Below, in pieces: positions 15,045 through 55,525 of a DNA stretch of 64,000 nt. The DNA comes from Fimbriimonadaceae bacterium (GTDB lineage: Bacteria; Armatimonadota; Fimbriimonadia; Fimbriimonadales; Fimbriimonadaceae): positions 2,886 to 66,885 of the forward strand of contig JANRKI010000029.1 of the NCBI GenBank assembly GCA_033763535.1, written 5' to 3'. The stretch's first letter is position 1. Each line of letters opens with the position of its first letter. The translations under genes and the position numbers were made by a program. The notes under the pieces are model-generated. The model worked only from the letters and a program-made list of their open reading frames with translations. It was not told the DNA's origin and made no database searches.

Positions 15045-16121
15045 GTGAAAAAGCTCGACCAGTACATCCTGCGGGAGATGCTGGTGCCCTTTATCACCGG
15101 CACATTCGTGGTTGTGTTGATGTTTCAGATCAACGCGTACATGTACATGGCCAAAACATACAACCTGGAGAACGTTCCGTTTTCCGCGGTAGTGCAGTAC
15201 ATTCTGTTTCGGACGCCGGAGTATCTGAAGATGACGTTGGTTGTCGGGACTTCGCTCGGGGCGAGTCTGGCGATGACGCGGTTGGCGCGGGAAAGCGAGA
15301 TTACGGCGATGCGGGCGGCGGGCGTTCGGATACTGCGCATCGTCTTCCCGTTGTTTTTGTTCGGTAACTTGGTGACGCTGGCCAATTACTTCTTGAGCGA
15401 GGCCCTGGTGCCAGACTGGACGAAACGGGCGAATGCCGTATTGGTGCAAAGCGGCATCATGGGCCTGAGTAAGCCCACCATGAAGGCGAATGCCATCATC
15501 GAGTTGGATCAGTACACGGCCTCATTCGGGACGGTTCGGCGGCTGGGCGAGTATCAGGTGGAGTTGAGCAACGTGGTGTTGCTGGAGCATATCGGAGCGC
15601 AAAAAGTGAGCGTGCTAATATCACCGACCGGTCGTTATGACCGCGGAGTTTGGCGGTTTTCGAACGCCACGCGCTACGAGTTTGATGGGCCCGATCTGCT
15701 GGTGATGGAGTCGAAAGAGATCGTCATTAATCAGAAGATCGTGATTGATAGTTTCCTCGGTGGTTCGGGGCAGAACGCGGAGCGGTCGATTGCCGAGCTG
15801 CAGGAGGCGATCGATTCCGCGCGGAAGATTGGATCGGACCCGCGGCGAGACGAGATTGAGCTGCAATCGCGTTACAGCGTGCCGGTAGCGTGCGCAGTTT
15901 TCAGCTTGGTGTCGCCGGTGTTTGCGCTGCTGTTTGCGCGGAGCGGCGGATTTATCGGGGTATTGGTGAGCTTCGTCGTGGTGCTCTTGTACTACAACGC
16001 GTTTGTGATTTCGACGGAGATTTTAGGGCGTTACCCGGCGGTTCCGGTATGGGTAGCGGCCTGGGGGCCCGACCTTTTGTTCGCGATTGCGGCGGTCATT
16101 GCGTTACGGAAGCTGGAATGA
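15045..16121 (+). CDS. LptF/LptG family LPS export permease
   Basis: MKKLDQYILRE..PF, RLARESEITAMRAAG, central beta-jellyroll region, three C-terminal TMs, AAWGPDLLF. Confidence 0.9.
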   Translation: MKKLDQYILREMLVPFITGTFVVVLMFQINAYMYMAKTYNLENVPFSAVVQYILFRTPEYLKMTLVVGTSLGASLAMTRLARESEITAMRAAGVRILRIVFPLFLFGNLVTLANYFLSEALVPDWTKRANAVLVQSGIMGLSKPTMKANAIIELDQYTASFGTVRRLGEYQVELSNVVLLEHIGAQKVSVLISPTGRYDRGVWRFSNATRYEFDGPDLLVMESKEIVINQKIVIDSFLGGSGQNAERSIAELQEAIDSARKIGSDPRRDEIELQSRYSVPVACAVFSLVSPVFALLFARSGGFIGVLVSFVVVLLYYNAFVISTEILGRYPAVPVWVAAWGPDLLFAIAAVIALRKLE

Positions 16122-18406
16122 GGGGCATGCTGGCGGGTGCCGCGTGGTCGCTGGGGACGATTGCGTTTACGCAGGTGATTCCTCCAATTAGCGGATTAGA
16201 AGCCGCGCGGGAACTGCGGAAGCGAAGTCCCTTTGAATTGCCGAGTAATCCGCCCTTACGAAATGCCGAAACCCGGGAGGTTCCGCCGGAGAAGGCGGAT
16301 GATCGGGAACTGGAGGTCATCCGGGCGGAGACGTTTACGCGGGATGGTCGGACCGTGCAGTTGCGCGGCGGGGCGGAGATTTTGTACCGCGGCTACCGTT
16401 GCTTTGCGGACGAGATTGACGGTGATCTTGATACCGAAATCTTCGTGATGCGCGGCAACGTGAAGGTGGTGGGGCGGGACGCCGTGATCTACGGCGAGAA
16501 GGTGACGTTCGATTTTCCGAAAGAGTCGTTTCGATCGGAACGCGGGAGTGGCCAGCTGAAACCGCAGTTTCTGAAGTCGCCGATTCGGGATGATCTGTTC
16601 GTTAAGTCGCGCGTATCGGAAGGGACAGAGCGCGATACGCATCACGAGAGCGGCCAACTTACGACGTGCAACCTGGGAGATGGTGCGCACTTCGAAATTG
16701 AGGCGGCAGACACGGTAGTCCGTACGAATACGCGCATTATCTTTCGGAAAGTGCGGCTGCGATTCTTCGACCGAACCGTGCTAACGTTGCCGTTTTTGTC
16801 GTTGCCGTTAGATGATGCGAAGAGTCGGTACACGCCGGATGTCGGACAAAGTCGGGACGAAGGGTATTACATCAAGAATCGTTTTGGCGTGCCGTCACGG
16901 CCGGATGATTCGCTGGTATCGCGCGTGGACTACATGTCTCGCCTAGGAAACGGTTTAGGCGGGGACTATACGTACCAGCGGAAAGGCTTCGACGGAAAGG
17001 CGAGCGTTTACGGCATCGTTGGCTCCGTGGGGACGCTGAACTTTAGCAATCAGCACCGCCAAAAGTGGGGCCGGAGCGAGTTCGCGATTCAGAACGATTA
17101 CCAGAAGGACAACTACCTGACGGCACCCGGTACGACGCTGCTGAACTCGAACTTGCAGTTGACCATCCCTCAGCGCACGGGGCAGAGCACGGTGACGTTT
17201 GCCCGCCAGCAATCGGACGTGCAGCAGGCAAGTTCGGTAAACGAAACGCTGACGTTATCCGATAACCGGACGTTCGGGCGATTGCGCACCAGCGGAAACT
17301 TTTCGTACTTGAACAGCCGGAACTCGTACCCCGGCGCGACGGAGTTTTCGAATGAGCAGCTGGACGTGCGGTTCCAGGCGAGTCAGGAGCTGCCGGCGTT
17401 CGGGGCGACACTCGAGTACCAGCGGGTGGTGCCGATTGGGGATAGCCCTTCGGTGTTTGGGAACGCAGACAAGACGCCAGTGCTCACCCTTACGAGTGAC
17501 GGGAATCGGATTCTGGGCAAGAAGCTCGGCGCGATCTACCCGTTTCGCACCTCGGCGAGTATCGGCGAATTTGGTGGATTGCGGGGCGAGCGGATCACGC
17601 GCAACATCTTCGATATTTCGATGGCGAAGAATGACGCGGCGGCGAAGCGGTTTCGGGTGGACTACACCGGTCAGTTTCGCCAAAGCGCGTACTCCGACGA
17701 CACCGCTCAGTACGTGGTGGGCGGCGGGCTTACGGCCAGCTATCGGCTGGGCGGAGATACCTCGGCAAACATCCGCTATAACTATCTGCGGCCAGAAGGT
17801 TACAGTCCGCTGCAACTTGACCGGACCGGGCGTAGCCATATTGCGACGGCGGATGTGTCGGTTCGTCCATTACGTAGTTTGCTGGTCGGCGCGCAAACAG
17901 GTTACGACTTTTTCCGAATCAAGACCAGCGACGTCGGGTGGCAGCAGGTCGGGTTACGGAGCGAGTACACGCCGACTTCGTGGTTCCAGGCGCGGGCGGT
18001 GAGTTCGTACGATACGATTAACCAGTTATGGAGCGGCGTTCGATTAGACTTTTCGTACCGGCCGGGGGCAACCTTGGTCACGTTAGGCGCGCGATACGAT
18101 GGGTTCCAACGCCGGTGGAGCGACGCAAATCTATTCGTCAACAATTTGAAGTGGGGACGGACGCGGCTGAGTGCGGTGCTGACCTACAACGGATTCACCA
18201 AAACGATTGATGCGGCGCAGTACTCCGCAATTTACGATCTGCACTGCTGGGAAGCGGTGATCTCGGTTACGGAGTTTCGGACCGGCTTTCGTCCGGGGCG
18301 TGAGGTCCAGTTTTTCGTGCGGCTCAAGGCGTTCCCAACGGACTCGCTCTTCGGCATTGGTCGCCGGGGGCAGTCGGTGGGCAACGGCGTCGGCTACGGC
18401 TTCTAA
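16118..18406 (+). CDS. lptD: LptD-like outer-membrane assembly beta-barrel
   Basis: N-terminal OstA-like jellyroll, LTTCN...HFEIEA, FFDRTVLTLPF, alternating beta-strands, C-terminal aromatic residue; follows lptF/G. Confidence 0.8.
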   Translation: MRGMLAGAAWSLGTIAFTQVIPPISGLEAARELRKRSPFELPSNPPLRNAETREVPPEKADDRELEVIRAETFTRDGRTVQLRGGAEILYRGYRCFADEIDGDLDTEIFVMRGNVKVVGRDAVIYGEKVTFDFPKESFRSERGSGQLKPQFLKSPIRDDLFVKSRVSEGTERDTHHESGQLTTCNLGDGAHFEIEAADTVVRTNTRIIFRKVRLRFFDRTVLTLPFLSLPLDDAKSRYTPDVGQSRDEGYYIKNRFGVPSRPDDSLVSRVDYMSRLGNGLGGDYTYQRKGFDGKASVYGIVGSVGTLNFSNQHRQKWGRSEFAIQNDYQKDNYLTAPGTTLLNSNLQLTIPQRTGQSTVTFARQQSDVQQASSVNETLTLSDNRTFGRLRTSGNFSYLNSRNSYPGATEFSNEQLDVRFQASQELPAFGATLEYQRVVPIGDSPSVFGNADKTPVLTLTSDGNRILGKKLGAIYPFRTSASIGEFGGLRGERITRNIFDISMAKNDAAAKRFRVDYTGQFRQSAYSDDTAQYVVGGGLTASYRLGGDTSANIRYNYLRPEGYSPLQLDRTGRSHIATADVSVRPLRSLLVGAQTGYDFFRIKTSDVGWQQVGLRSEYTPTSWFQARAVSSYDTINQLWSGVRLDFSYRPGATLVTLGARYDGFQRRWSDANLFVNNLKWGRTRLSAVLTYNGFTKTIDAAQYSAIYDLHCWEAVISVTEFRTGFRPGREVQFFVRLKAFPTDSLFGIGRRGQSVGNGVGYGF

Positions 18407-49166: not shown

Positions 49167-52100
49167 ATGTCGATGCCGGTTCGAAACATCACGTTGCCAA
49201 TGTTTGCGCTTGGCATCGTCGTGTCTTCGGCCCATGCCCAAGCCCCGACATCGTTGAGTACGGGCGGCGAGGCCAATGCATCGGTTCCCGCGCCGGTCGC
49301 CCTCGGCGGAACCCCCGCGATCGACGTCTTGCGGCTGGAAGGCGGCTCGCCGAGTGCACCGCTCCGGTACGGAAACGTCATTCCCGGTAGCGAACGCATC
49401 GATCTGGATGGTCGGGCCCTCGTCGCCGTAACCGACTACGCGCTGGATGCCGAAGTCGGGGTGATCTACCTCAAGCGCGCGTTTCGGCCCGGCCAAACGC
49501 TGACGGTCTCGTACCGGTACAGCGACAAGCCCGTGAGCAACGGCGCCAGCGTCGCCAAGGCCCTCAGCTCGATGAAGCTGAAGCTCGTTTCCGGCGGAGA
49601 AGGCTTCGGCGGACTCGGCTTCAGTGCCGGTCTCGGCGTGACTGAACGGACGGCCGATGGCCGCGTGTTGACTGGCAACGCGTTCGGCCTCAACACGAAT
49701 TTCCGGCTTGGAGCCGCCAGCACGATGAGCGGTTTCTACGTCGTCGGCAACCGGAACCGGGCCCAAAACGTGGCGGGAATGAACTTCACCGGCGCGTCCG
49801 GAGGTCAGGCCGATGGCGACACGGGGACGTCCCGCGCCGTGGTGCAACGCCTTGGGGCCGGTGCGCTCGGTGGCAAGCTGAGCTTCGACTACCAAGACGT
49901 CAGCCAAAACTTCACCGCATTCGGCAGCCTGCGCGACAACGGAGCCGATGACGCGGCGATCCAACGCCTCCGCTCGGAGCGCGGGATGCAACGGGTCGGT
50001 TACGCCGCCGAAGGGTTGCGATTTGGCAACACCTCGCTCTCCGCGTCCACCCGCAAGGTGTCGGACCGCGATGGTGACATCGCCTGGACCAGCTACGGCC
50101 TCGAGCAAAAAGGGCTGAAGCTCCAGTACCGCGGCCAAGACGTTGGCAACACGTTTGGCCGGTTCAAGGATATTGCCGAGCAAGATCGCGAGCAACTGAT
50201 GCGCGAGCGCGGGATGAAGCGCGACTTCCTCGCCGGAGAATTCGCGAGCCGCATGGGCAAACTCGGCTTCTCCTCCATACGCATCGAGGACAAGGCGAGC
50301 GGTCGCGACATCGCCCGCCAAGAGTTTCAGTACGAGCTGAAGAACACGAAGGTGAGCTTCGGCTCGCAAGAGGTGGCGCAAGGGTTCGGCCGGTTCGACT
50401 CGCTGCTCGGCGACGAACGCGGTCGATTCGGGCTGGAAGCGGGACTCAGCCGCAGTTGGGCGAACTTCAGTTCCGATGCCTTCGGAAAGGGCACCAGTTT
50501 TCAGTTCCAGCGAAACGATCTCGCCAGCAACGGCGGCAAGTTCGCGGGGCAAGACCTCAGCCTCAATGCCAAAACGTGGAGCCTCTCCCATTCCGAGCGC
50601 TCCATTGACAAGGCGTTTGCCGGATTCCACGCGATGCAAGACGGCGAACGTCAGGCGAACGTGGACAAGATCGCCCGGATGTACGGCGCGGATACCGCGG
50701 CGCGTCCGGAAGACAAGCATTTTCTCACGATGGGACACGGCATCGGCCGGTCCGCCACGTCCCTCAGCGCCAAGCCGTGGAAGGACTGGGACGTCTCGTT
50801 CACGCGGCTCCAACTCACCGGCGCGCAAGACTCGGGCGAAGTCAATTCGCTGAGAATTGCGCGTAAGGGGTTCGAAGTCCATTACCGAAACCAGCAACTG
50901 GGCGAACGTTTTGACGACGTCACCCGAATGCTGAGCTTCGAGAAGATGCGCCTTGGCAACGTGGCGGGACTCGACCGAACGGACTTCGGGATGGCGGTCC
51001 ATCTGGGCGGGCACAAGCAGTTCAGCTTCCAAAACTCACGCGCCAGCAATGCCGAAGGCGGATTCAACCGAACCCACGTGGCGTTCTCGGACAAGAAAAT
51101 TGACGTTCGTCTGAACGCCCGCGACGTCGACGCCGGACTGCGGTCGTTTGGCCAATTGACGGACCCTGATCGCGACGTGCTGCTCGGCCTGCAGGGAGCG
51201 CGGCAACGGGATGCCAGCTTCAAATGGCGGATTCTGCCGAACGTTGACATCGAAGGCTTCGGTCAAGATATCTTCCACCGCGAGCAACGGTCGAACGATC
51301 AAATTCGCAACATGTCGGTCAACTGGGGCCTCGACCCGAAGACGTCTGTGTCGATGGTTCGGACCGAGCGGAAGCAGACCGATTCGCTGAGCACCATGTT
51401 TAGCGAGATCGTCGAGCGCATTTCGCTCTCGCGCGATTTTGGTCGCTACGGGCGACTGTCGCTCCTCGATGAATCGGTCGATTTCGGTGGACGCGACGCG
51501 CGCGCCGCGGACAGACGCCGCCAGTACCTCTCGTGGGAAACCAAACTGAACCCGAAGACCGACCTGCGTGCCGAACAGACGCGGACGGACTTTAGCGACG
51601 GTACGAATGAGAGGGTTAATGCGAACACCGTTAGTACCGCCGTCACCAAGAACCTCGGCGTCAGCGTGACGGACGTGAATGTGGATCGCCACGGCGATGA
51701 GCGCGACGAACGCAAACGCAACTACGGTTTCTGGTGGGACCTTGGCAAGGGTCTGCGGCTTTCGTACGGATACAACCGTCAGCTCGTGGGCGATAACGGC
51801 GGAACACTGAACTCCACCGTCGCGATCGGCCAGCACAACGGCGCCGTGAATCCGGACCAAGTCGGCTCGGTGCAAGCGTCCGAAATTCAGGGCGTGCGCA
51901 TCGGTGGCGCGTACGGCGTCAACCAGTGGGATCAAAACAACCGGACCCAAGCCTTCACGAACTTCACGTTCGGTAGCGCCAAGCCGATTCGATTTGGCCC
52001 GGTGCAAGACTTTAATTTCAACTTCGGCATGGACCAGGCCAGCGACCTGTCGAACTGGATGCGCGAGAATCGCCGCGCCAGCGTCAACGGACGCATCGGG

Positions 52101-52739
52101 TCGAACAAGTTCGGCTACCAGTACCTCAGCCAGATGCACCAGTCCGGCACCCGGGGCATCGACCGTGTGTTCCAGATCGAAACCGATCAGGACGCCAAGA
52201 ACCCGTTCCGCGCGAACGTGTTCTACAAGGTGCGCACGTTGCCGTGGAACGACTCCGTCATGGTGCGCCGGTACCAACTCGCGTACCGGCCGGCGAAGAA
52301 CCTCGAGTTCACCCACATGCTGGAAACGAATCCCGAAATCACGCGCAGCGACGTTTTCTTGGGATCGTTGCCGCAGGCCGCCCGCAGCAGCCGATGGGAC
52401 CTCAACTGGAAGCGCGACTCAAACTTCACCCTCGGCGGTATGTGGCAAGAGCTGGCGAACGATCAAACGCTCGCCCGAACGCGCACCGCCGGCGTCAACT
52501 TCACCTGGAACGAGGCGAAGGGAAGTCCGTTCCGACTGTTCTACGGTCTGGAGCAAGCCGATGGAAACGTCTTGCAGAACACGCGCCACCGGTACAGCAT
52601 CGGCTTTGACCAGCGACCGGGGCCGAACCAAACGCTCAGCTTCTTCCTGGGCAATCTCAGCTACGAGCACGCCATCGTCAATGGCCAATCGCGCAATAAC
52701 TGGACCTTCCGCCTGAACTACCAACTCCGGTTCCGGTAA
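49167..52739 (+). CDS. 1190-aa exported protein, predicted large outer-membrane beta-barrel with internal repeats
   Basis: Signal peptide ending AHA-Q; alternating hydrophobic beta-strands; about six 75-100 aa repeats; C-terminus WTFRLNYQLRFR. Confidence 0.7.
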   Translation: MSMPVRNITLPMFALGIVVSSAHAQAPTSLSTGGEANASVPAPVALGGTPAIDVLRLEGGSPSAPLRYGNVIPGSERIDLDGRALVAVTDYALDAEVGVIYLKRAFRPGQTLTVSYRYSDKPVSNGASVAKALSSMKLKLVSGGEGFGGLGFSAGLGVTERTADGRVLTGNAFGLNTNFRLGAASTMSGFYVVGNRNRAQNVAGMNFTGASGGQADGDTGTSRAVVQRLGAGALGGKLSFDYQDVSQNFTAFGSLRDNGADDAAIQRLRSERGMQRVGYAAEGLRFGNTSLSASTRKVSDRDGDIAWTSYGLEQKGLKLQYRGQDVGNTFGRFKDIAEQDREQLMRERGMKRDFLAGEFASRMGKLGFSSIRIEDKASGRDIARQEFQYELKNTKVSFGSQEVAQGFGRFDSLLGDERGRFGLEAGLSRSWANFSSDAFGKGTSFQFQRNDLASNGGKFAGQDLSLNAKTWSLSHSERSIDKAFAGFHAMQDGERQANVDKIARMYGADTAARPEDKHFLTMGHGIGRSATSLSAKPWKDWDVSFTRLQLTGAQDSGEVNSLRIARKGFEVHYRNQQLGERFDDVTRMLSFEKMRLGNVAGLDRTDFGMAVHLGGHKQFSFQNSRASNAEGGFNRTHVAFSDKKIDVRLNARDVDAGLRSFGQLTDPDRDVLLGLQGARQRDASFKWRILPNVDIEGFGQDIFHREQRSNDQIRNMSVNWGLDPKTSVSMVRTERKQTDSLSTMFSEIVERISLSRDFGRYGRLSLLDESVDFGGRDARAADRRRQYLSWETKLNPKTDLRAEQTRTDFSDGTNERVNANTVSTAVTKNLGVSVTDVNVDRHGDERDERKRNYGFWWDLGKGLRLSYGYNRQLVGDNGGTLNSTVAIGQHNGAVNPDQVGSVQASEIQGVRIGGAYGVNQWDQNNRTQAFTNFTFGSAKPIRFGPVQDFNFNFGMDQASDLSNWMRENRRASVNGRIGSNKFGYQYLSQMHQSGTRGIDRVFQIETDQDAKNPFRANVFYKVRTLPWNDSVMVRRYQLAYRPAKNLEFTHMLETNPEITRSDVFLGSLPQAARSSRWDLNWKRDSNFTLGGMWQELANDQTLARTRTAGVNFTWNEAKGSPFRLFYGLEQADGNVLQNTRHRYSIGFDQRPGPNQTLSFFLGNLSYEHAIVNGQSRNNWTFRLNYQLRFR

Positions 52740-52746
52740 AACCCGG

Positions 52747-53670
52747 GTGATGCCGGAAACCGTGACGTTTGGGCGATGGCCAGAGATGATTCGGATCGCG
52801 GATGATCGGGCGGAACTGCACGTCTCCACCCAGTTCGGACCGCGCATTCTGGGCGCAAACCTGCTCGAGGCCCCCAACCTCATGTACCAGTTTCCACCGG
52901 AAACCGAGCCGGACGGCTACCGATTTTACGGTGGCCACCGACTCTGGATCGCGCCCGAATCGCGCGAGCTGAGTATGCAGCCGGAGAATGAACCGGTCGC
53001 GGTGCGGCACGGCGAGCAATCGGTGCAGCTCACCGCTCCCACCGATACGAACGGCTTCACGAAGTCGCTCGTGATCGCCGCGCGGGGCGACGGTCAATTT
53101 GTCGTCACGCACGGCCTGACGTACTCCGGCGAGGCACCGAGGACCGTGGCCCCGTGGGCCCTATCCATGTTGGTGGCGGGCACGCGCGTCGTTTTTCCTC
53201 AGCCGGAGTACGTCAGTCACGAGTCCGACGTCCTCCCAAATCGACCGCTCGTCACTTGGGGATACACCGACCTCAGCGACCCGCGCTGGACTTGGCATCC
53301 GGCGCTCGCGTCGCTGCAACAATCTCCCACCCGCACGCCGCAAAAAATCGGAACGTACTTGGCGGAGGGTTGGGCGGCAGCCATCGGACACGGGCAGCTG
53401 TTGCTCAAGACGTTCGGTGCGCTGGCCGGTTCGGGGGCCGGAGTCCAGGATCCGACGCAGATCTATCCCGATATGGGCTGCAACTTCGAGACATTTACCA
53501 ACGGCGACATGATCGAAATTGAGTCGCTGGGACCGAAGGCCACCGTCACCGCCGGAAGCGCGCTGATTCACGAAGAACGTTGGCTCATCGCGTCGGCGAA
53601 AGACCTTCCCTCCGCGCCCGTCCAATTGCGCGAGGCCCTCGCCGCCCTCGCGGACCGGCTCCGGGATTAG
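52747..53670 (+). CDS. Hypothetical beta-sandwich protein (DUF4380 / galactose-mutarotase-like)
   Basis: FGPRILG, FYGGHRLWIAPE, YPDMGCNFETFTN, MIEIESLGP; 7 bp after the barrel gene. Confidence 0.6.
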   Translation: MMPETVTFGRWPEMIRIADDRAELHVSTQFGPRILGANLLEAPNLMYQFPPETEPDGYRFYGGHRLWIAPESRELSMQPENEPVAVRHGEQSVQLTAPTDTNGFTKSLVIAARGDGQFVVTHGLTYSGEAPRTVAPWALSMLVAGTRVVFPQPEYVSHESDVLPNRPLVTWGYTDLSDPRWTWHPALASLQQSPTRTPQKIGTYLAEGWAAAIGHGQLLLKTFGALAGSGAGVQDPTQIYPDMGCNFETFTNGDMIEIESLGPKATVTAGSALIHEERWLIASAKDLPSAPVQLREALAALADRLRD

Positions 53671-54494
53671 CGCACGATGGTGCGAGGCGGGGACTGCCAG
53701 GGCGACTGCGGAATGCCATCCTTGGTGGTCACCACGCTATCATCGGGCTGCAACATTCGGAGTTCGCCGGTGGCGGTCAGGGCGTGGATGCCGCCGTCGT
53801 GCCGTCCGTACGCTTCCTTCAGCGACTTGCCCGTTTCGCGAAAGGCGAGTCGCGTCACGCGCTTCGTCGCGCGGTTCGGCGAGAAGTTGTCATTGTCAAA
53901 CCCCACCGTCACGCCGTCCGGCAACGGTTTGCCGTTCTTGTCGCGAAACGGTAACGGATTGTAGGAGGACTCGCTGCCGTTGTTACTGGTTTCCGCGAGG
54001 ATAATCGTTTGGTCCGGTAGCTCAATGTTGAAGTACTTTTCGGCAGAGTACGCCACGTACATCCCGTAACTTGCGGGCAAGTATTGGCTGCCATCCTCGG
54101 GGTTTTCGACCCGGAAGCGTTCGTTCTCGCCACTGGATGGACACGCAAAGGCCGCTCGGCGCGACATGTAAGGAAACAAATCGGAGTGCCACGTGTACGG
54201 CAACGCGTTTTCGCCAATGGCCGGCAATCGTTGATCGTCGGCACGGTACACGGGCGGCAAACCGTCGTCGTGATCGCGGATGTAAAGCGTGAGGGCCGTA
54301 TGCATCGCCTTGAAGTTGCCCACGCACTGGGCCTTTTCACTCTTCGCGATGCCGACCTTGTACACCGGGTAGCAGATCGCGGCGAGTGCGATCAGTCCGA
54401 TGCCGATAATCCGCAATTCCTTGCGCGACATGTACTGACTCTTCGCCGATGCTTCTTCCTCGGTGGCTTGCGGATCGTACGTACTGGTGCTCAT
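53667..54494 (-). CDS. DUF1559-like pilin-related protein lacking a prepilin cleavage site
   Basis: TM then QCVGNFKAMHTALTLYIRDHDDGLPP; C-terminal RH-x9-TG. Confidence 0.7.
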   Translation of the reverse strand: MSTSTYDPQATEEEASAKSQYMSRKELRIIGIGLIALAAICYPVYKVGIAKSEKAQCVGNFKAMHTALTLYIRDHDDGLPPVYRADDQRLPAIGENALPYTWHSDLFPYMSRRAAFACPSSGENERFRVENPEDGSQYLPASYGMYVAYSAEKYFNIELPDQTIILAETSNNGSESSYNPLPFRDKNGKPLPDGVTVGFDNDNFSPNRATKRVTRLAFRETGKSLKEAYGRHDGGIHALTATGELRMLQPDDSVVTTKDGIPQSPWQSPPRTIVR

Positions 54495-55525
54495 CGAATA
54501 CTCCGGGTCGCGTGAGAGGCTTTCGGTTTCAGGTTGTATTCGGCCAGTACGGCCGGAAGCTTGCGGGAGTCAATCGCCAGTTTCGTCGTACCGCGCTGCT
54601 CTCGAACGGGCAGCATCCCCATTCGAATCTGCGACGGCTTGACTCGTTTGGCAAAGAACGCGAGGCTTGCAATCTCGTCCTCCGACATGGAGTTCCCGAG
54701 GACCGCCACCGCTTTGTCGAACACGCTCGGTAGCTTGAGCGGGTCGCGCATCACGGCATCCTTAAACGAAACCAAGAACTGCTTTTGCCGGTTCTGCCGA
54801 TCGAAATCGGTGTCGGCCGCGCCATCGTTGCTCTTGCGGTACCTAACGTACATCAGCGCGTCGTATCCGCTCAGCTGATGACGTCCGGGTTCCAGATGAA
54901 TATGGACATTGCCGGCGTGGTCATCGTAATCCATCTTCTTCGGCACGTCCATCGCGACTCCGCCCACCGCGTCCACCATCTCCTGGAACGCGTCGTAGTT
55001 CAGCACGACCACGCGATCAATCGGCACTCCATCGAGGGCGTGCGTGACCGCCTTCTGCATCATCTCCGGACCTTTGTCGGTACCTTCCAGCTTAAAATAG
55101 CTGTTGATCCGGTGACTACGGTAACCCGGAAGTCGAACGTCGGTATCGCGGGGAATCGAAATGCCCGTGATCATCTCGTTCTCAAAATCCAACCGCGCAA
55201 CGAGGATCATGTCTGCCCGCGCGTACTTACGGGTCACTTCGCCCGCTTTATTTGTCCAATCCCGCTCGCCGTAAGCCGCGACGCCGCCCCATTTCCGCTC
55301 TTCGTCGCAGCCCAGCATCAGTAGCGTAATGCTCTTTGTGTTGCCGAACACGACCTTCGGGTCCTTCGGAACGATGGCCGTTTGCAAGAGGCTCATCATC
55401 ATGCGGCTTCGGCTCACCCAACCGTAGACCGTCCCCAGCGCCAGGGCGATGAAGAGCAGTAATCCGTAACCGATGATGGGGCCCCAACGCCGCGATTTCG
55501 GGGCCGACTGTTGACGCTTCCTCAC
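54491..55525 (-). CDS. LCP (LytR-CpsA-Psr) family glycopolymer transferase
   Basis: N-terminal TM, LLMLGCD, RADMIL, ISIPRDT, YVRYRK, DFDRQNRQKQFL. Confidence 0.93.
   Translation of the reverse strand: MRKRQQSAPKSRRWGPIIGYGLLLFIALALGTVYGWVSRSRMMMSLLQTAIVPKDPKVVFGNTKSITLLMLGCDEERKWGGVAAYGERDWTNKAGEVTRKYARADMILVARLDFENEMITGISIPRDTDVRLPGYRSHRINSYFKLEGTDKGPEMMQKAVTHALDGVPIDRVVVLNYDAFQEMVDAVGGVAMDVPKKMDYDDHAGNVHIHLEPGRHQLSGYDALMYVRYRKSNDGAADTDFDRQNRQKQFLVSFKDAVMRDPLKLPSVFDKAVAVLGNSMSEDEIASLAFFAKRVKPSQIRMGMLPVREQRGTTKLAIDSRKLPAVLAEYNLKPKASHATRSIR

What the first reader, a model, noticed from the sequence alone, without database searches (positions are those of the whole stretch)
49167..52739. Giant (1190 aa) predicted outer-membrane barrel built from an unrecognised ~75-100 aa repeat
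Seen: about six repeats between roughly 49875 and 51330 sharing Y/F-x2-(D/E)V-x3-F-x2-F-x2-(L/I/M)-x3-(D/E)R-x2-L-x4-G-x2-R. Examples: YQDVSQNFTAFGSL...RSERGMQR; GQDVGNTFGRFKDIAEQDREQLMRERGMKR; SQEVAQGFGRFDSLLGDERGRFGLEAGLSR; ERSIDKAFAGFHAMQDGER; NQQLGERFDDVTRMLSFEKMRLGNVAGLDR; ARDVDAGLRSFGQLTDPDRDVLLGLQGARQR. Each is followed by several amphipathic strands. The N-terminal VTDYALDAEVGVIYLKRAFRPGQTLTVSYRY recalls the small domain at the start of SprA-like proteins, and the C-terminus (WTFRLNYQLRF) fits a BAM beta-signal. Inference: a very large barrel with repeated helical loops, possibly a protein/polymer translocon of a Terrabacterial diderm. The SprA comparison is resemblance only.
Basis: partly seen in the sequence, partly recalled or inferred. 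Interest (0 to 1): 0.7.

Follow-up and report, generated by a model that had tools for sequence, protein, structure and literature searches.

The report
Giant 54-strand outer-membrane β-protein
This gene encodes a 1190-residue exported protein, a single-copy core gene of Fimbriimonadales (Armatimonadota), confidently predicted as one continuous wall of about 54 membrane-embedded β-strands with six repeated helix-bearing loops; if that wall closes into one barrel it would be far larger than any known single-chain barrel, and its function is untested.

Summary
ORF 49167..52739 (+) encodes 1190 aa, and all quoted peptides are present. Six contiguous 76-98-aa repeats (aa 237-725) are significant (repeat-HMM E 1e-15 to 1e-20).

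The protein has a Sec signal peptide, a small N-terminal β-domain, about 54 long antiparallel strands and a conserved terminal "NWTxRLDYQLRF" β-signal. AlphaFold2 with 64 sequences gives pLDDT 87 but pTM only 0.54.

Coevolution shows that only neighbouring strands pair, including across the helical inserts, so this is one continuous meander. All strands carry a hydrophobic belt at the same height next to the tight turns. The lineage has BamA, LpxC, secretins and, in this same window, a true LptD.

Nothing in Pfam, NCBIfam or PDB matches beyond the small N-domain, which is shared with SprA and phage tail proteins. Foldseek finds only generic large barrels (TM ≤ 0.28).

The family is restricted to Armatimonadota. 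It occurs in 59 of 61 genomes of the order, as a single copy without conserved neighbours.

Best reading: a new BAM-assembled giant outer-membrane barrel, probably a large gated channel or translocon. The function is inferred, not shown.

The parts
49167..49238 (+). Sec signal peptide, aa 1-24 (R6 n-region, LPMFALGIVVSS core, AHA|Q cleavage motif; no lipobox Cys)
   Evidence: Sequence. Q25 is nearly invariant in the family. pLDDT is below 50 for aa 1-41. Cleavage is inferred from the motif, not predicted by a program.
49305..49526 (+). Small N-terminal β-domain, aa 47-120 (consensus PLRxGxVxPGSExVxLDGRxLxxGxDYxIDYxxGVVYL...VxYRY)
   Evidence: Six β-strands, pLDDT 81-87. Non-local strand pairing coevolves, aa 75-117 z=7. 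The domain profile hits SprA 6h3i_A aa 685-731 at E 1.8e-5, Spa2 7woi, and phage tail tubular protein B 9k09. There are sub-threshold DUF2460 hits in 15 of 24 members.
49527..49610 (+). Flexible linker with a short strand S0 (aa 136-141)
   Evidence: pLDDT 49-64. S0 pairs with S1 by coevolution, z 4.3.
49611..52727 (+). Continuous antiparallel β-meander of 54 long strands (aa 149-1187), the predicted membrane wall
   Evidence: DSSP maps of two AF2 models are identical. All 54 neighbour pairs coevolve (median z 4.1) while pairs two or more strands apart do not. A hydrophobic belt sits at the same height on all strands.
49875..50117 (+). Repeat 1 (aa 237-317): strand ending in QDV, helical insert aa 246-274, three more strands
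50118..50348 (+). Repeat 2 (aa 318-394); its insert FGRFKDIAEQDREQLMRERGMKR holds most of the family's invariant residues (F330 R332 F333 D335 E338 L344 E347 G349)
50349..50579 (+). Repeat 3 (aa 395-471)
50580..50873 (+). Repeat 4 (aa 472-569), with a longer 46-aa three-helix insert
50874..51101 (+). Repeat 5 (aa 570-645)
51102..51341 (+). Repeat 6 (aa 646-725)
52695..52733 (+). C-terminal strand and β-signal (aa 1177-1189, NNWTFRLNYQLRF; one extra R follows in this protein)
   Evidence: F1189 is at least 90% conserved in 113 sequences; Y1185 and N1178 are invariant or nearly so in 24. The outward face of S54 has the highest hydrophobic occupancy of all strands, 0.79 against 0.04.

Best explanation
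The gene encodes a BAM-assembled outer-membrane β-barrel-type protein of a new family restricted to Armatimonadota.

Export and assembly: after Sec export and signal-peptide removal, the conserved C-terminal β-signal is recognised by BamA. The chain then folds into one continuous up-and-down sheet of about 54 strands embedded in the outer membrane.

Geometry: tight 2-residue turns lie on one side, taken to be the periplasm, and longer loops lie on the other. Six of those loops, one every fourth strand over strands 5-26, are conserved two-helix inserts rich in paired acidic and basic residues. They pack against the inner (lumen-facing) top of the wall. I infer that they form a collar or gate at the extracellular rim.

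N-terminus: the small N-terminal β-domain hangs on a flexible linker and could serve as an adaptor or plug.

Function: I commit to the reading that this wall encloses a very large lumen, about 10 nm across if circular, and works as a gated channel or translocon for bulky cargo such as folded protein or polymer, probably with an unidentified plug partner.

Shown here: export signals, the strand map, neighbour pairing, the hydrophobic belt, repeat modularity, phyletic distribution, and the presence of BAM and LPS machinery in the lineage.

Inferred: closure into a single barrel, the side on which the loops lie, the gating role of the helices, and the cargo.

My odds: outer-membrane-embedded β-barrel-type protein 0.8; a single closed barrel of 50 or more strands about 0.4; a large-cargo channel or translocon function about 0.3.
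For: Signal peptide and β-signal.

AF2: pLDDT 78.4 with 24 sequences and 87.4 with 64 sequences, with an identical map of 54 strands of 9-15 residues.

Coevolution with 165 sequences (Neff 146): all 54 neighbouring pairs have z >= 0.59, median 4.07. This includes the six pairs that span the helical inserts (z 3.6-9.3). Pairs two or more strands apart are at background.

Hydrophobic belt: outward-face occupancy is 0.6-0.95 for the first 3-4 alternate positions from the tight-turn end, then drops to 0.1-0.3. The inner face is 0.1-0.25. This holds in all four regions of the wall.

Connections: those after even strands have median length 2 residues (16 of 26 are exactly 2). Those after odd strands have median 5, up to 46.

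The ends of the wall match a same-genus BamA barrel in density of lipid-facing windows: 4.6 and 2.1 per 100 aa against 2.6.

Lineage: BamA is in 198 of 201 genomes of the phylum, and LpxC in 25 of 26 genomes of the order.

Foldseek's best hits are the largest known barrels, SprA, LptD and SlpA.

Repeat number varies from 4 to 8 with protein length, as expected for a wall that grows by hairpin modules.

The family is a single-copy core gene, present in 59 of 61 genomes of the order.
Against: Closure is not shown. S1-S54 has z -1.3 and S0-S54 z -1.6, below every true neighbour pair. No antiparallel or parallel ladder between the N and C edges exceeds noise.

pTM is only 0.45-0.54, and both edge strands have lower pLDDT (62-77 at the N edge, 82-85 at the C edge) than interior strands (93-97).

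The belt is only 3 residues thick in strands 6-38. Lipid-facing windows are depleted there (0.9-1.4 per 100 aa against 2.6 in BamA). About 8 of 54 strands have no clear hydrophobic face.

No plug large enough for a 10-nm lumen is encoded in the chain or in conserved neighbours.

BamA itself is missing from this assembly; I attribute that to an assembly gap.
Confidence: 0.5

Rival explanations
1. It is an abundant structural outer-membrane protein (scaffold or OM-to-cell-wall connector), analogous to Deinococcus SlpA or OmpM. The barrel sits in the outer membrane, and the N-terminal β-domain reaches a periplasmic or wall partner. Transport would be secondary or absent.
For: The size is similar to SlpA, which Foldseek lists (8ae1_A, E 3.4e-4). 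It is a single-copy core gene, essentially monocistronic, with no secretion partners nearby. An LCP wall-glycopolymer ligase lies two genes downstream here and in one 39%-identical relative. The N-domain sits on a flexible linker.
Against: There is no SLH domain and no coiled coil. OmpM/SlpA-like tethers are already reported for Armatimonadetes (bioRxiv 10.1101/2021.05.31.446380; PMC9388160). CsaB is never adjacent to this family. A different 953-aa β-protein follows CsaB in this genome and is the better tether candidate. TM-score to SlpA is only 0.19-0.23.
Confidence: 0.2
2. It is not one barrel. The meander either forms a non-canonical membrane sheet (open, spiral, collapsed two-layer, or capped by partner proteins at its edges), or only the terminal strands (S1-5 and S39-54) span the membrane while the repeat region forms an extramembrane β-structure.
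For: There is no edge-to-edge coevolution, although all 54 neighbour pairs are detected. pTM is 0.54 and edge-strand pLDDT is lower. The belt is thinner (3 residues) and TM-like windows are depleted in aa 250-905. The ApoB100 β-belt is among the top Foldseek hits. AF2 is known to mis-fold very large barrels (bioRxiv 10.64898/2026.03.07.710327).
Against: The belt is at the same height on every region of the sheet, so the whole sheet appears to share one membrane plane. Free β-edges in a bilayer are energetically costly (established principle). No S5-S39 pairing or other sub-barrel closure signal appears. Weak or non-coevolving seams are known in lateral-gate barrels such as BamA and LptD (from my own knowledge).
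Confidence: 0.25
3. It is the lineage's substitute for a canonical outer-membrane machine that appears to be missing, either LptD or a secretin.
For: Pfam LptD (PF04453) is absent from 26 of 26 genomes of the order although LpxC is present in 25 of 26. LptD is among the Foldseek hits.
Against: A true LptD orthologue lies in this same window (about 16127..18406). JGI names its homologues 'LPS-assembly protein'. Its family profile hits only LptD in the PDB (8h1r_A, E 3.2e-9). Secretins are present in 201 of 201 genomes. The giant protein has no OstA/LptD_N domain.
Confidence: 0.03

Closest known systems
SprA, the type 9 secretion translocon of Bacteroidota (PDB 6h3i, 8gl6, 8gl8)
   Same: It is a giant single-chain outer-membrane barrel and the top Foldseek hit for the better model (E 4.8e-7). 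It shares the small 'GS-x-V-x-x-x-G-x-x-L-x-x-G-x-DY-x-x-D-x-x-x-G' β-domain at profile level (E 1.8e-5).
   Different: SprA has about 2400 aa and 36 strands with large cap inserts, whereas this protein has 1190 aa and about 54 strands with almost no extramembrane mass. The shared domain is internal and present twice in SprA but N-terminal and single here. There is no SprA_N Pfam match. TM-score is 0.13. T9SS partners were not searched for. Resemblance in kind, not membership.
LptD (LPS translocon, 26 strands)
   Same: A large barrel; many Foldseek hits at E 1e-5 to 1e-4. A weak or non-coevolving seam would parallel LptD's lateral gate (from my own knowledge).
   Different: There is no OstA β-jellyroll, TM-score is at most 0.28, and a separate true LptD orthologue exists in the same window.
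SlpA / OmpM of Deinococcus-Thermus and other diderm Terrabacteria (28-30 strands; PDB 8ae1)
   Same: Similar chain length (about 1170 aa), a Terrabacterial diderm context, and a core single-copy OMP with a β-signal (PMC9388160). It appears as a Foldseek hit at E 3.4e-4.
   Different: No SLH domain and no coiled-coil stalk. Nearly twice as many strands. TM-score 0.19-0.23.
ApoB100 β-belt (PDB 9ea7, 9bde)
   Same: A very long amphipathic antiparallel β-meander that contacts lipid; a top Foldseek hit (E 4e-7 to 3e-6; TM up to 0.22).
   Different: A eukaryotic lipoprotein belt with no evolutionary or functional link implied. It is cited only because it shows that the model resembles a long meander as much as a closed barrel.
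Other giant Armatimonadota barrels noted earlier in this scan (CsaB- or LptC/LptA-linked, about 34-38 strands)
   Same: Same phylum and the same theme of outsized, unannotated barrels. The one in this genome (C55:50864-53725, 953 aa) carries the same small β-domain.
   Different: They belong to a different family: there is no homology outside the small domain. Those genes sit in conserved operons, whereas this one stands alone and is never next to CsaB.

Membership tests
BAM-dependent outer-membrane β-barrel proteins (general class) | N-terminal Sec signal peptide | tested here: met
   aa 1-24 with AHA|Q, read from the sequence; conserved Q25. No signal-peptide predictor was available.
BAM-dependent outer-membrane β-barrel proteins (general class) | C-terminal β-signal: a last strand with alternating hydrophobic or aromatic residues and a terminal aromatic | tested here: met
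   W-x-F-x-L-x-Y-x-L-x-F; F1189 is at least 90% conserved in 113 sequences. This protein has one extra residue (R) after the F.
BAM-dependent outer-membrane β-barrel proteins (general class) | All-next-neighbour antiparallel meander with short turns on one side and longer loops on the other | tested here: met
   DSSP of two models; coevolution between neighbours only; median connection length 2 against 5 residues.
BAM-dependent outer-membrane β-barrel proteins (general class) | Outward hydrophobic belt at a constant height with a polar inner face | tested here: met
   The belt is thinner (3 positions) in strands 6-38, and about 8 strands are ambiguous.
BAM-dependent outer-membrane β-barrel proteins (general class) | Closure: the first and last strands pair | tested here: inconclusive
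   No coevolution between the edges. pTM 0.54.
BAM-dependent outer-membrane β-barrel proteins (general class) | The organism has BamA | tested here: inconclusive
   Absent from this 117-contig assembly but present in 198 of 201 genomes of the phylum and in all same-genus genomes. There it sits in a TamB-BamA-Skp-LpxD-LpxC cluster. LpxC is missing here too, which fits a single assembly gap.
SprA (T9SS translocon) | Match to SprA family models (Pfam SprA_N) | tested here: not met
   No Pfam or NCBIfam family at E <= 10 for the protein; none among the 24 members.
SprA (T9SS translocon) | Global fold similarity to the 36-strand SprA barrel | tested here: not met
   Foldseek E 4.8e-7, but TM-score 0.13 (query-normalised) and 0.09 (target-normalised).
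SprA (T9SS translocon) | Co-occurrence with T9SS partners (PorV, GldKLMN, CTD cargo) | not tested
LptD | N-terminal OstA/LptD_N β-jellyroll plus an LptD barrel | tested here: not met
   No PF03968 or PF04453 match. A separate orthologue at window 16127..18406 hits LptD 8h1r_A at E 3.2e-9.
SlpA / OmpM | N-terminal SLH domain (with a coiled coil in SlpA) | tested here: not met
   No SLH match in Pfam. No long helix in the models.
TonB-dependent receptors | Plug domain and TonB-dependent receptor barrel Pfam models | tested here: not met
   No Pfam match. BtuB and FepA appear only as generic Foldseek hits at TM 0.1-0.27.

The most novel reading that the evidence does not exclude
The ~54 strands close into a single transmembrane barrel. 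That would make it by far the largest single-chain β-barrel known (SprA has 36 strands), with a backbone diameter near 10 nm. It would be built from four-strand modules whose number varies between lineages, and gated by six conserved helical loops. It would define a new class of outer-membrane translocon, or a housing for a partner complex, that is core to Fimbriimonadales and widespread in Armatimonadota.
Probability: 0.3. Interest if true: 0.85.

Novelty: new variant of a known kind. Interest (0 to 1): 0.62.

Why it matters
Single-chain outer-membrane barrels are thought to top out at 26-36 strands; SprA is described as the largest known (bioRxiv 10.64898/2026.03.07.710327). This is a confidently predicted, conserved wall of about 54 strands that is a core gene of a whole bacterial order. 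It challenges that limit and raises several questions: how BAM could fold such a substrate, what fills or gates so large a lumen, and what cargo needs it.

The family also shows barrel growth by whole four-strand-plus-helix modules (4 to 8 copies), a clean natural example of barrel evolution by hairpin amplification.

The work also clarifies the envelope of a little-studied diderm phylum of the Terrabacteria. BamA, LPS synthesis, secretins and a divergent LptD that Pfam misses are all present. At least two unrelated giant β-proteins share one small domain with SprA and phage tails.

Fimbriimonas ginsengisoli is cultured and carries a 45%-identical orthologue, so the question can be tested directly.

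Tried and rejected
1. 'The organism has no BAM or LPS, so this cannot be an OMP.' Omp85, POTRA, LptD and LpxC are all absent from this genome. However, BamA is in 198 of 201 genomes of the phylum and LpxC in 25 of 26 of the order, and the two are adjacent in relatives. This is an assembly gap.

2. LptD substitute: rejected, because a true LptD lies in the same window.

3. Secretin substitute: rejected, because secretins are in 201 of 201 genomes.

4. Link to the CsaB / wall-polymer operon, suggested by earlier scan notes: CsaB is never adjacent. The CsaB-linked giant protein is a different family.

5. β-propeller of six four-strand blades: rejected, because ladders across the inserts coevolve strongly and the strands are 9-15 residues long.

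6. Tandem small barrels: no sub-barrel closure signal. Non-adjacent z values match the background tail.

7. Conserved operon partners: none across six neighbourhoods. A GFO/IDH/MocA gene lies upstream in two, and a run of ~300-aa gene, pilin-like gene and LCP lies downstream in two.

8. Whole-protein sequence relatives in the PDB: none, by single sequence or by profile.

9. Technical dead ends:
- Model coordinates are not exposed.
- AF2 with 113 sequences was too large.
- The look-up of encoding contigs found no record for the F. ginsengisoli protein.


Full report
**1. What is there**

The window holds an ORF at 49167..52739 (+) of 1190 aa.

The product has no match in Pfam or in PDB sequences. 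Its only NCBIfam hit is far below cut-off. The family is nonetheless large:
- 25 close homologues of 1155-1188 aa, named only 'hypothetical protein', some labelled Fimbriimonas.
- 260 representatives at 50% clustering, nearly all 1150-1200 aa.

The gene is single-copy in this genome.

**2. The repeats are real**

I cut the family alignment into units at aa 237-317, 318-394, 395-471, 472-569, 570-645 and 646-725. Profile-profile comparison gives in-register matches with E from 1e-5 to 1e-15, while three flanking control segments do not match.

An HMM of the unit finds exactly six contiguous copies in this protein, with domain E 5e-15 to 4e-20. Among 131 full-length relatives, 115 have six copies. 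Shorter relatives (1046-1109 aa) have 4-5 copies and longer ones (1199-1399 aa) have 7-8. The wall therefore changes size in whole modules.

**3. Structure**

AlphaFold2 gave pLDDT 78.4 and pTM 0.45 with 24 sequences. With 64 diverse sequences it gave pLDDT 87.4, with 707 residues at 90 or above, and pTM 0.54. Both runs give the same map:
- a disordered stretch, aa 1-46;
- a six-strand β-domain, aa 47-120;
- a low-confidence linker with a short strand S0, aa 136-141;
- 54 strands of 9-15 residues, aa 149-1187.

Each repeat consists of one strand ending in Q-D/E-V, a 23-46-aa insert with two short helices (three in repeat 4), and three more strands.

Foldseek against the PDB returns SprA, the ApoB100 β-belt, LptD, BtuB and SlpA at E 5e-7 to 1e-3, but TM-scores never exceed 0.28. 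The fold class is 'very large antiparallel meander', with no close relative.

**4. Independent tests of the topology**

*Coevolution.* I ran mean-field DCA on 130 and then 165 family members (Neff 126 and 146) and summed the couplings along antiparallel ladders.
- All 54 neighbouring strand pairs score z >= 0.59, median 4.07.
- The six pairs that bridge the helical inserts score z 3.6-9.3.
- Pairs two to seven strands apart sit at background.

This confirms one continuous up-and-down sheet. It excludes a propeller of separate blades and gives no sign of tandem small barrels.

The two edges do not couple. S1-S54 has z -1.3 and S0-S54 has z -1.6. No antiparallel or parallel ladder between aa 125-250 and aa 1095-1190 exceeds noise.

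*Membrane signature.* I aligned every strand from its tight-turn end and computed family-wide hydrophobic occupancy. On the outward face, by alternate position:

| Strands | Outward-face occupancy |
|---|---|
| S1-5 | 0.76, 0.50, 0.95, 0.75, then 0.38 or lower |
| S6-25 | 0.66, 0.91, 0.71, then 0.29 or lower |
| S26-38 | 0.63, 0.87, 0.80, 0.42, then lower |
| S39-54 | 0.60, 0.87, 0.82, 0.86, then about 0.3 |

The inner face stays at 0.1-0.25 at those heights. The whole sheet therefore carries one belt at one height beside the tight turns, as in outer-membrane barrels.

In the repeat region the top of the inner face becomes hydrophobic (0.77). This position includes the conserved V of the QDV motif. 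I infer that the helical inserts pack on the lumen side of the rim.

Connections after even strands have a median of 2 residues (16 of 26 are exactly 2). Connections after odd strands have a median of 5, up to 46.

*Caveats.*
- The belt is only three positions thick in the middle of the protein.
- About 8 strands have no clear hydrophobic face.
- Lipid-facing windows are fewer in aa 250-905 (0.9-1.4 per 100 aa) than in a same-genus BamA barrel (2.6). The two ends score 4.6 and 2.1.

**5. Is the organism a BAM/LPS diderm?**

This assembly is 2.80 Mb in 117 contigs and 96.9% complete. It lacks Omp85, POTRA, LptD and LpxC matches. That finding does not hold for the lineage:
- BamA is in 198 of 201 genomes of the phylum, including every genome of the same genus and family.
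- LpxC is in 25 of 26 genomes of the order.
- In a same-genus genome the two lie in one TamB-BamA-Skp-Skp-x-LpxD-LpxC cluster.

One missing contig therefore explains the absences here.

**6. Functional hypotheses tested**

*LptD substitute.* Pfam's LptD model hits none of 26 genomes of the order, which raised the idea that the giant protein replaces LptD. That idea fails:
- A 759-aa protein in this same window (about 16127..18406) has an OstA-like N-terminus.
- JGI names its homologues 'LPS-assembly protein'.
- Its family profile hits only LptD in the PDB (8h1r_A, E 3.2e-9).

*Secretin substitute.* Secretins are in 201 of 201 genomes.

*OM-wall tether.* OmpM/SlpA-type tethers are reported for the phylum.

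*CsaB and Lpt operons.* Earlier notes of this scan describe other giant Armatimonadota barrels in CsaB or LptC/LptA operons. I tested that link:
- CsaB is present in 24 of 24 genomes but never beside this family.
- This genome has a different 953-aa exported β-protein right after CsaB.
- That protein shares only the small β-domain with ours.

*Neighbours.* Gene neighbourhoods of six family members share no functional partner.

**7. The N-terminal domain**

Its profile hits SprA at E 1.8e-5 (aa 685-731, with a weaker copy at aa 418-467), then Spa2 (7woi) and a phage tail tubular protein. Family members also give sub-threshold DUF2460 hits; DUF2460 is, to my knowledge, a phage/GTA-associated family.

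It is a small mobile β-domain that recurs in otherwise unrelated giant barrels and in phage tails.

Whether the domain lies in the periplasm or outside is open. The short strand S0 makes the strand parity ambiguous.

**8. Distribution**

The family is confined to Armatimonadota. The 63 genome loci fetched are Fimbriimonadaceae, Fimbriimonadales or Armatimonadota, apart from two evidently mislabelled MAGs.
- In the order: 59 of 61 genomes (56 of 57 high-quality), single copy, ORFs of 1161-1219 aa.
- In the phylum: 128 of 201 genomes at E <= 1e-5, strongly in about a dozen families.

**9. Reading**

Most likely this is a new family of BAM-assembled outer-membrane barrel-type proteins of unprecedented size. 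The largest known single-chain barrel is SprA, with 36 strands.

By standard barrel geometry, R = b/(2 sin(pi/n) cos a) with b = 4.4 Å and a of about 40°. A circular 54-strand barrel would then have a radius of about 49 Å. This is an inference from that formula, not a measurement on the model. Such a lumen needs a plug, a gate or a collapsed shape. The six conserved helical loops are the only built-in candidates for a partial gate.

I therefore favour a large gated channel or translocon with an unidentified partner. Two other readings remain serious rivals: a structural role, and a non-canonical topology (open, or with edges capped by a partner). Closure into one barrel could not be demonstrated with the tools at hand.

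Noticed in passing
window 15890..18406 (+); likely true start near 16127 (759 aa): A divergent LptD orthologue that Pfam's LptD model misses: PF04453 hits 0 of 26 genomes of the order. It has an OstA-like N-terminus, JGI names its homologues 'LPS-assembly protein', and its family profile hits only LptD 8h1r_A (E 3.2e-9).
   Followed up: yes
whole assembly G000 (outside the window); compare L012 (a same-genus genome): The TamB-BamA-Skp-Skp-x-LpxD-LpxC outer-membrane biogenesis cluster found in a same-genus genome is missing from this 117-contig assembly. The genome therefore falsely appears to lack BAM and LPS synthesis.
   Followed up: partly
genome contig C55:50864-53725 (+), outside the window, directly after CsaB (C55:49810-50634): A second giant exported β-protein (953 aa, ending DIELTFDF) sits next to the pyruvyl transferase CsaB. 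It is unrelated to the 1190-aa protein except for the same small β-domain, matched at aa 277-339; a second copy near aa 395-450 is my reading of the sequence and was not scored. It probably belongs to the CsaB-linked giant-barrel family noted elsewhere in this scan.
   Followed up: partly
window 49305..49526; also SprA aa 418-467 and 685-731, Spa2 (7woi), phage tail tubular protein B (9k09): A small β-domain with the motif GS-x-V-x-x-x-G-x-x-L-x-x-G-x-DY-x-x-D-x-x-x-G recurs in unrelated giant outer-membrane barrels and in phage tail proteins. It touches Pfam DUF2460 only below threshold and seems to lack a Pfam model of its own.
   Followed up: partly
window 52747..53670 (+), 53667..54494 (-), 54491..55525 (-): A 307-aa ORF with no Pfam match starts 8 nt after the giant gene's stop. 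It is followed by a convergent DUF1559-like pilin gene and an LCP (LytR-CpsA-Psr) gene. The same order occurs in one 39%-identical relative (L016) but not in four others.
   Followed up: partly
G052:C2:960169-963692 and G241:C11:72687-75395 (relatives): In one same-genus genome the gene is split into two ORFs (436 + 776 aa), either a frameshift or a sequencing error. One same-family genome has a 925-aa version that matches only the N- and C-terminal parts, so it seems to lack most of the repeat region.
   Followed up: no
L029 (JADZEW010000008.1) and L059 (CALRVI020000002.1): Two public MAG records, labelled 'Methanoregulaceae archaeon' and 'Methyloversatilis discipulorum', carry full-length members of this Armatimonadota-specific family. 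They are probably mislabelled or mis-binned.
   Followed up: no
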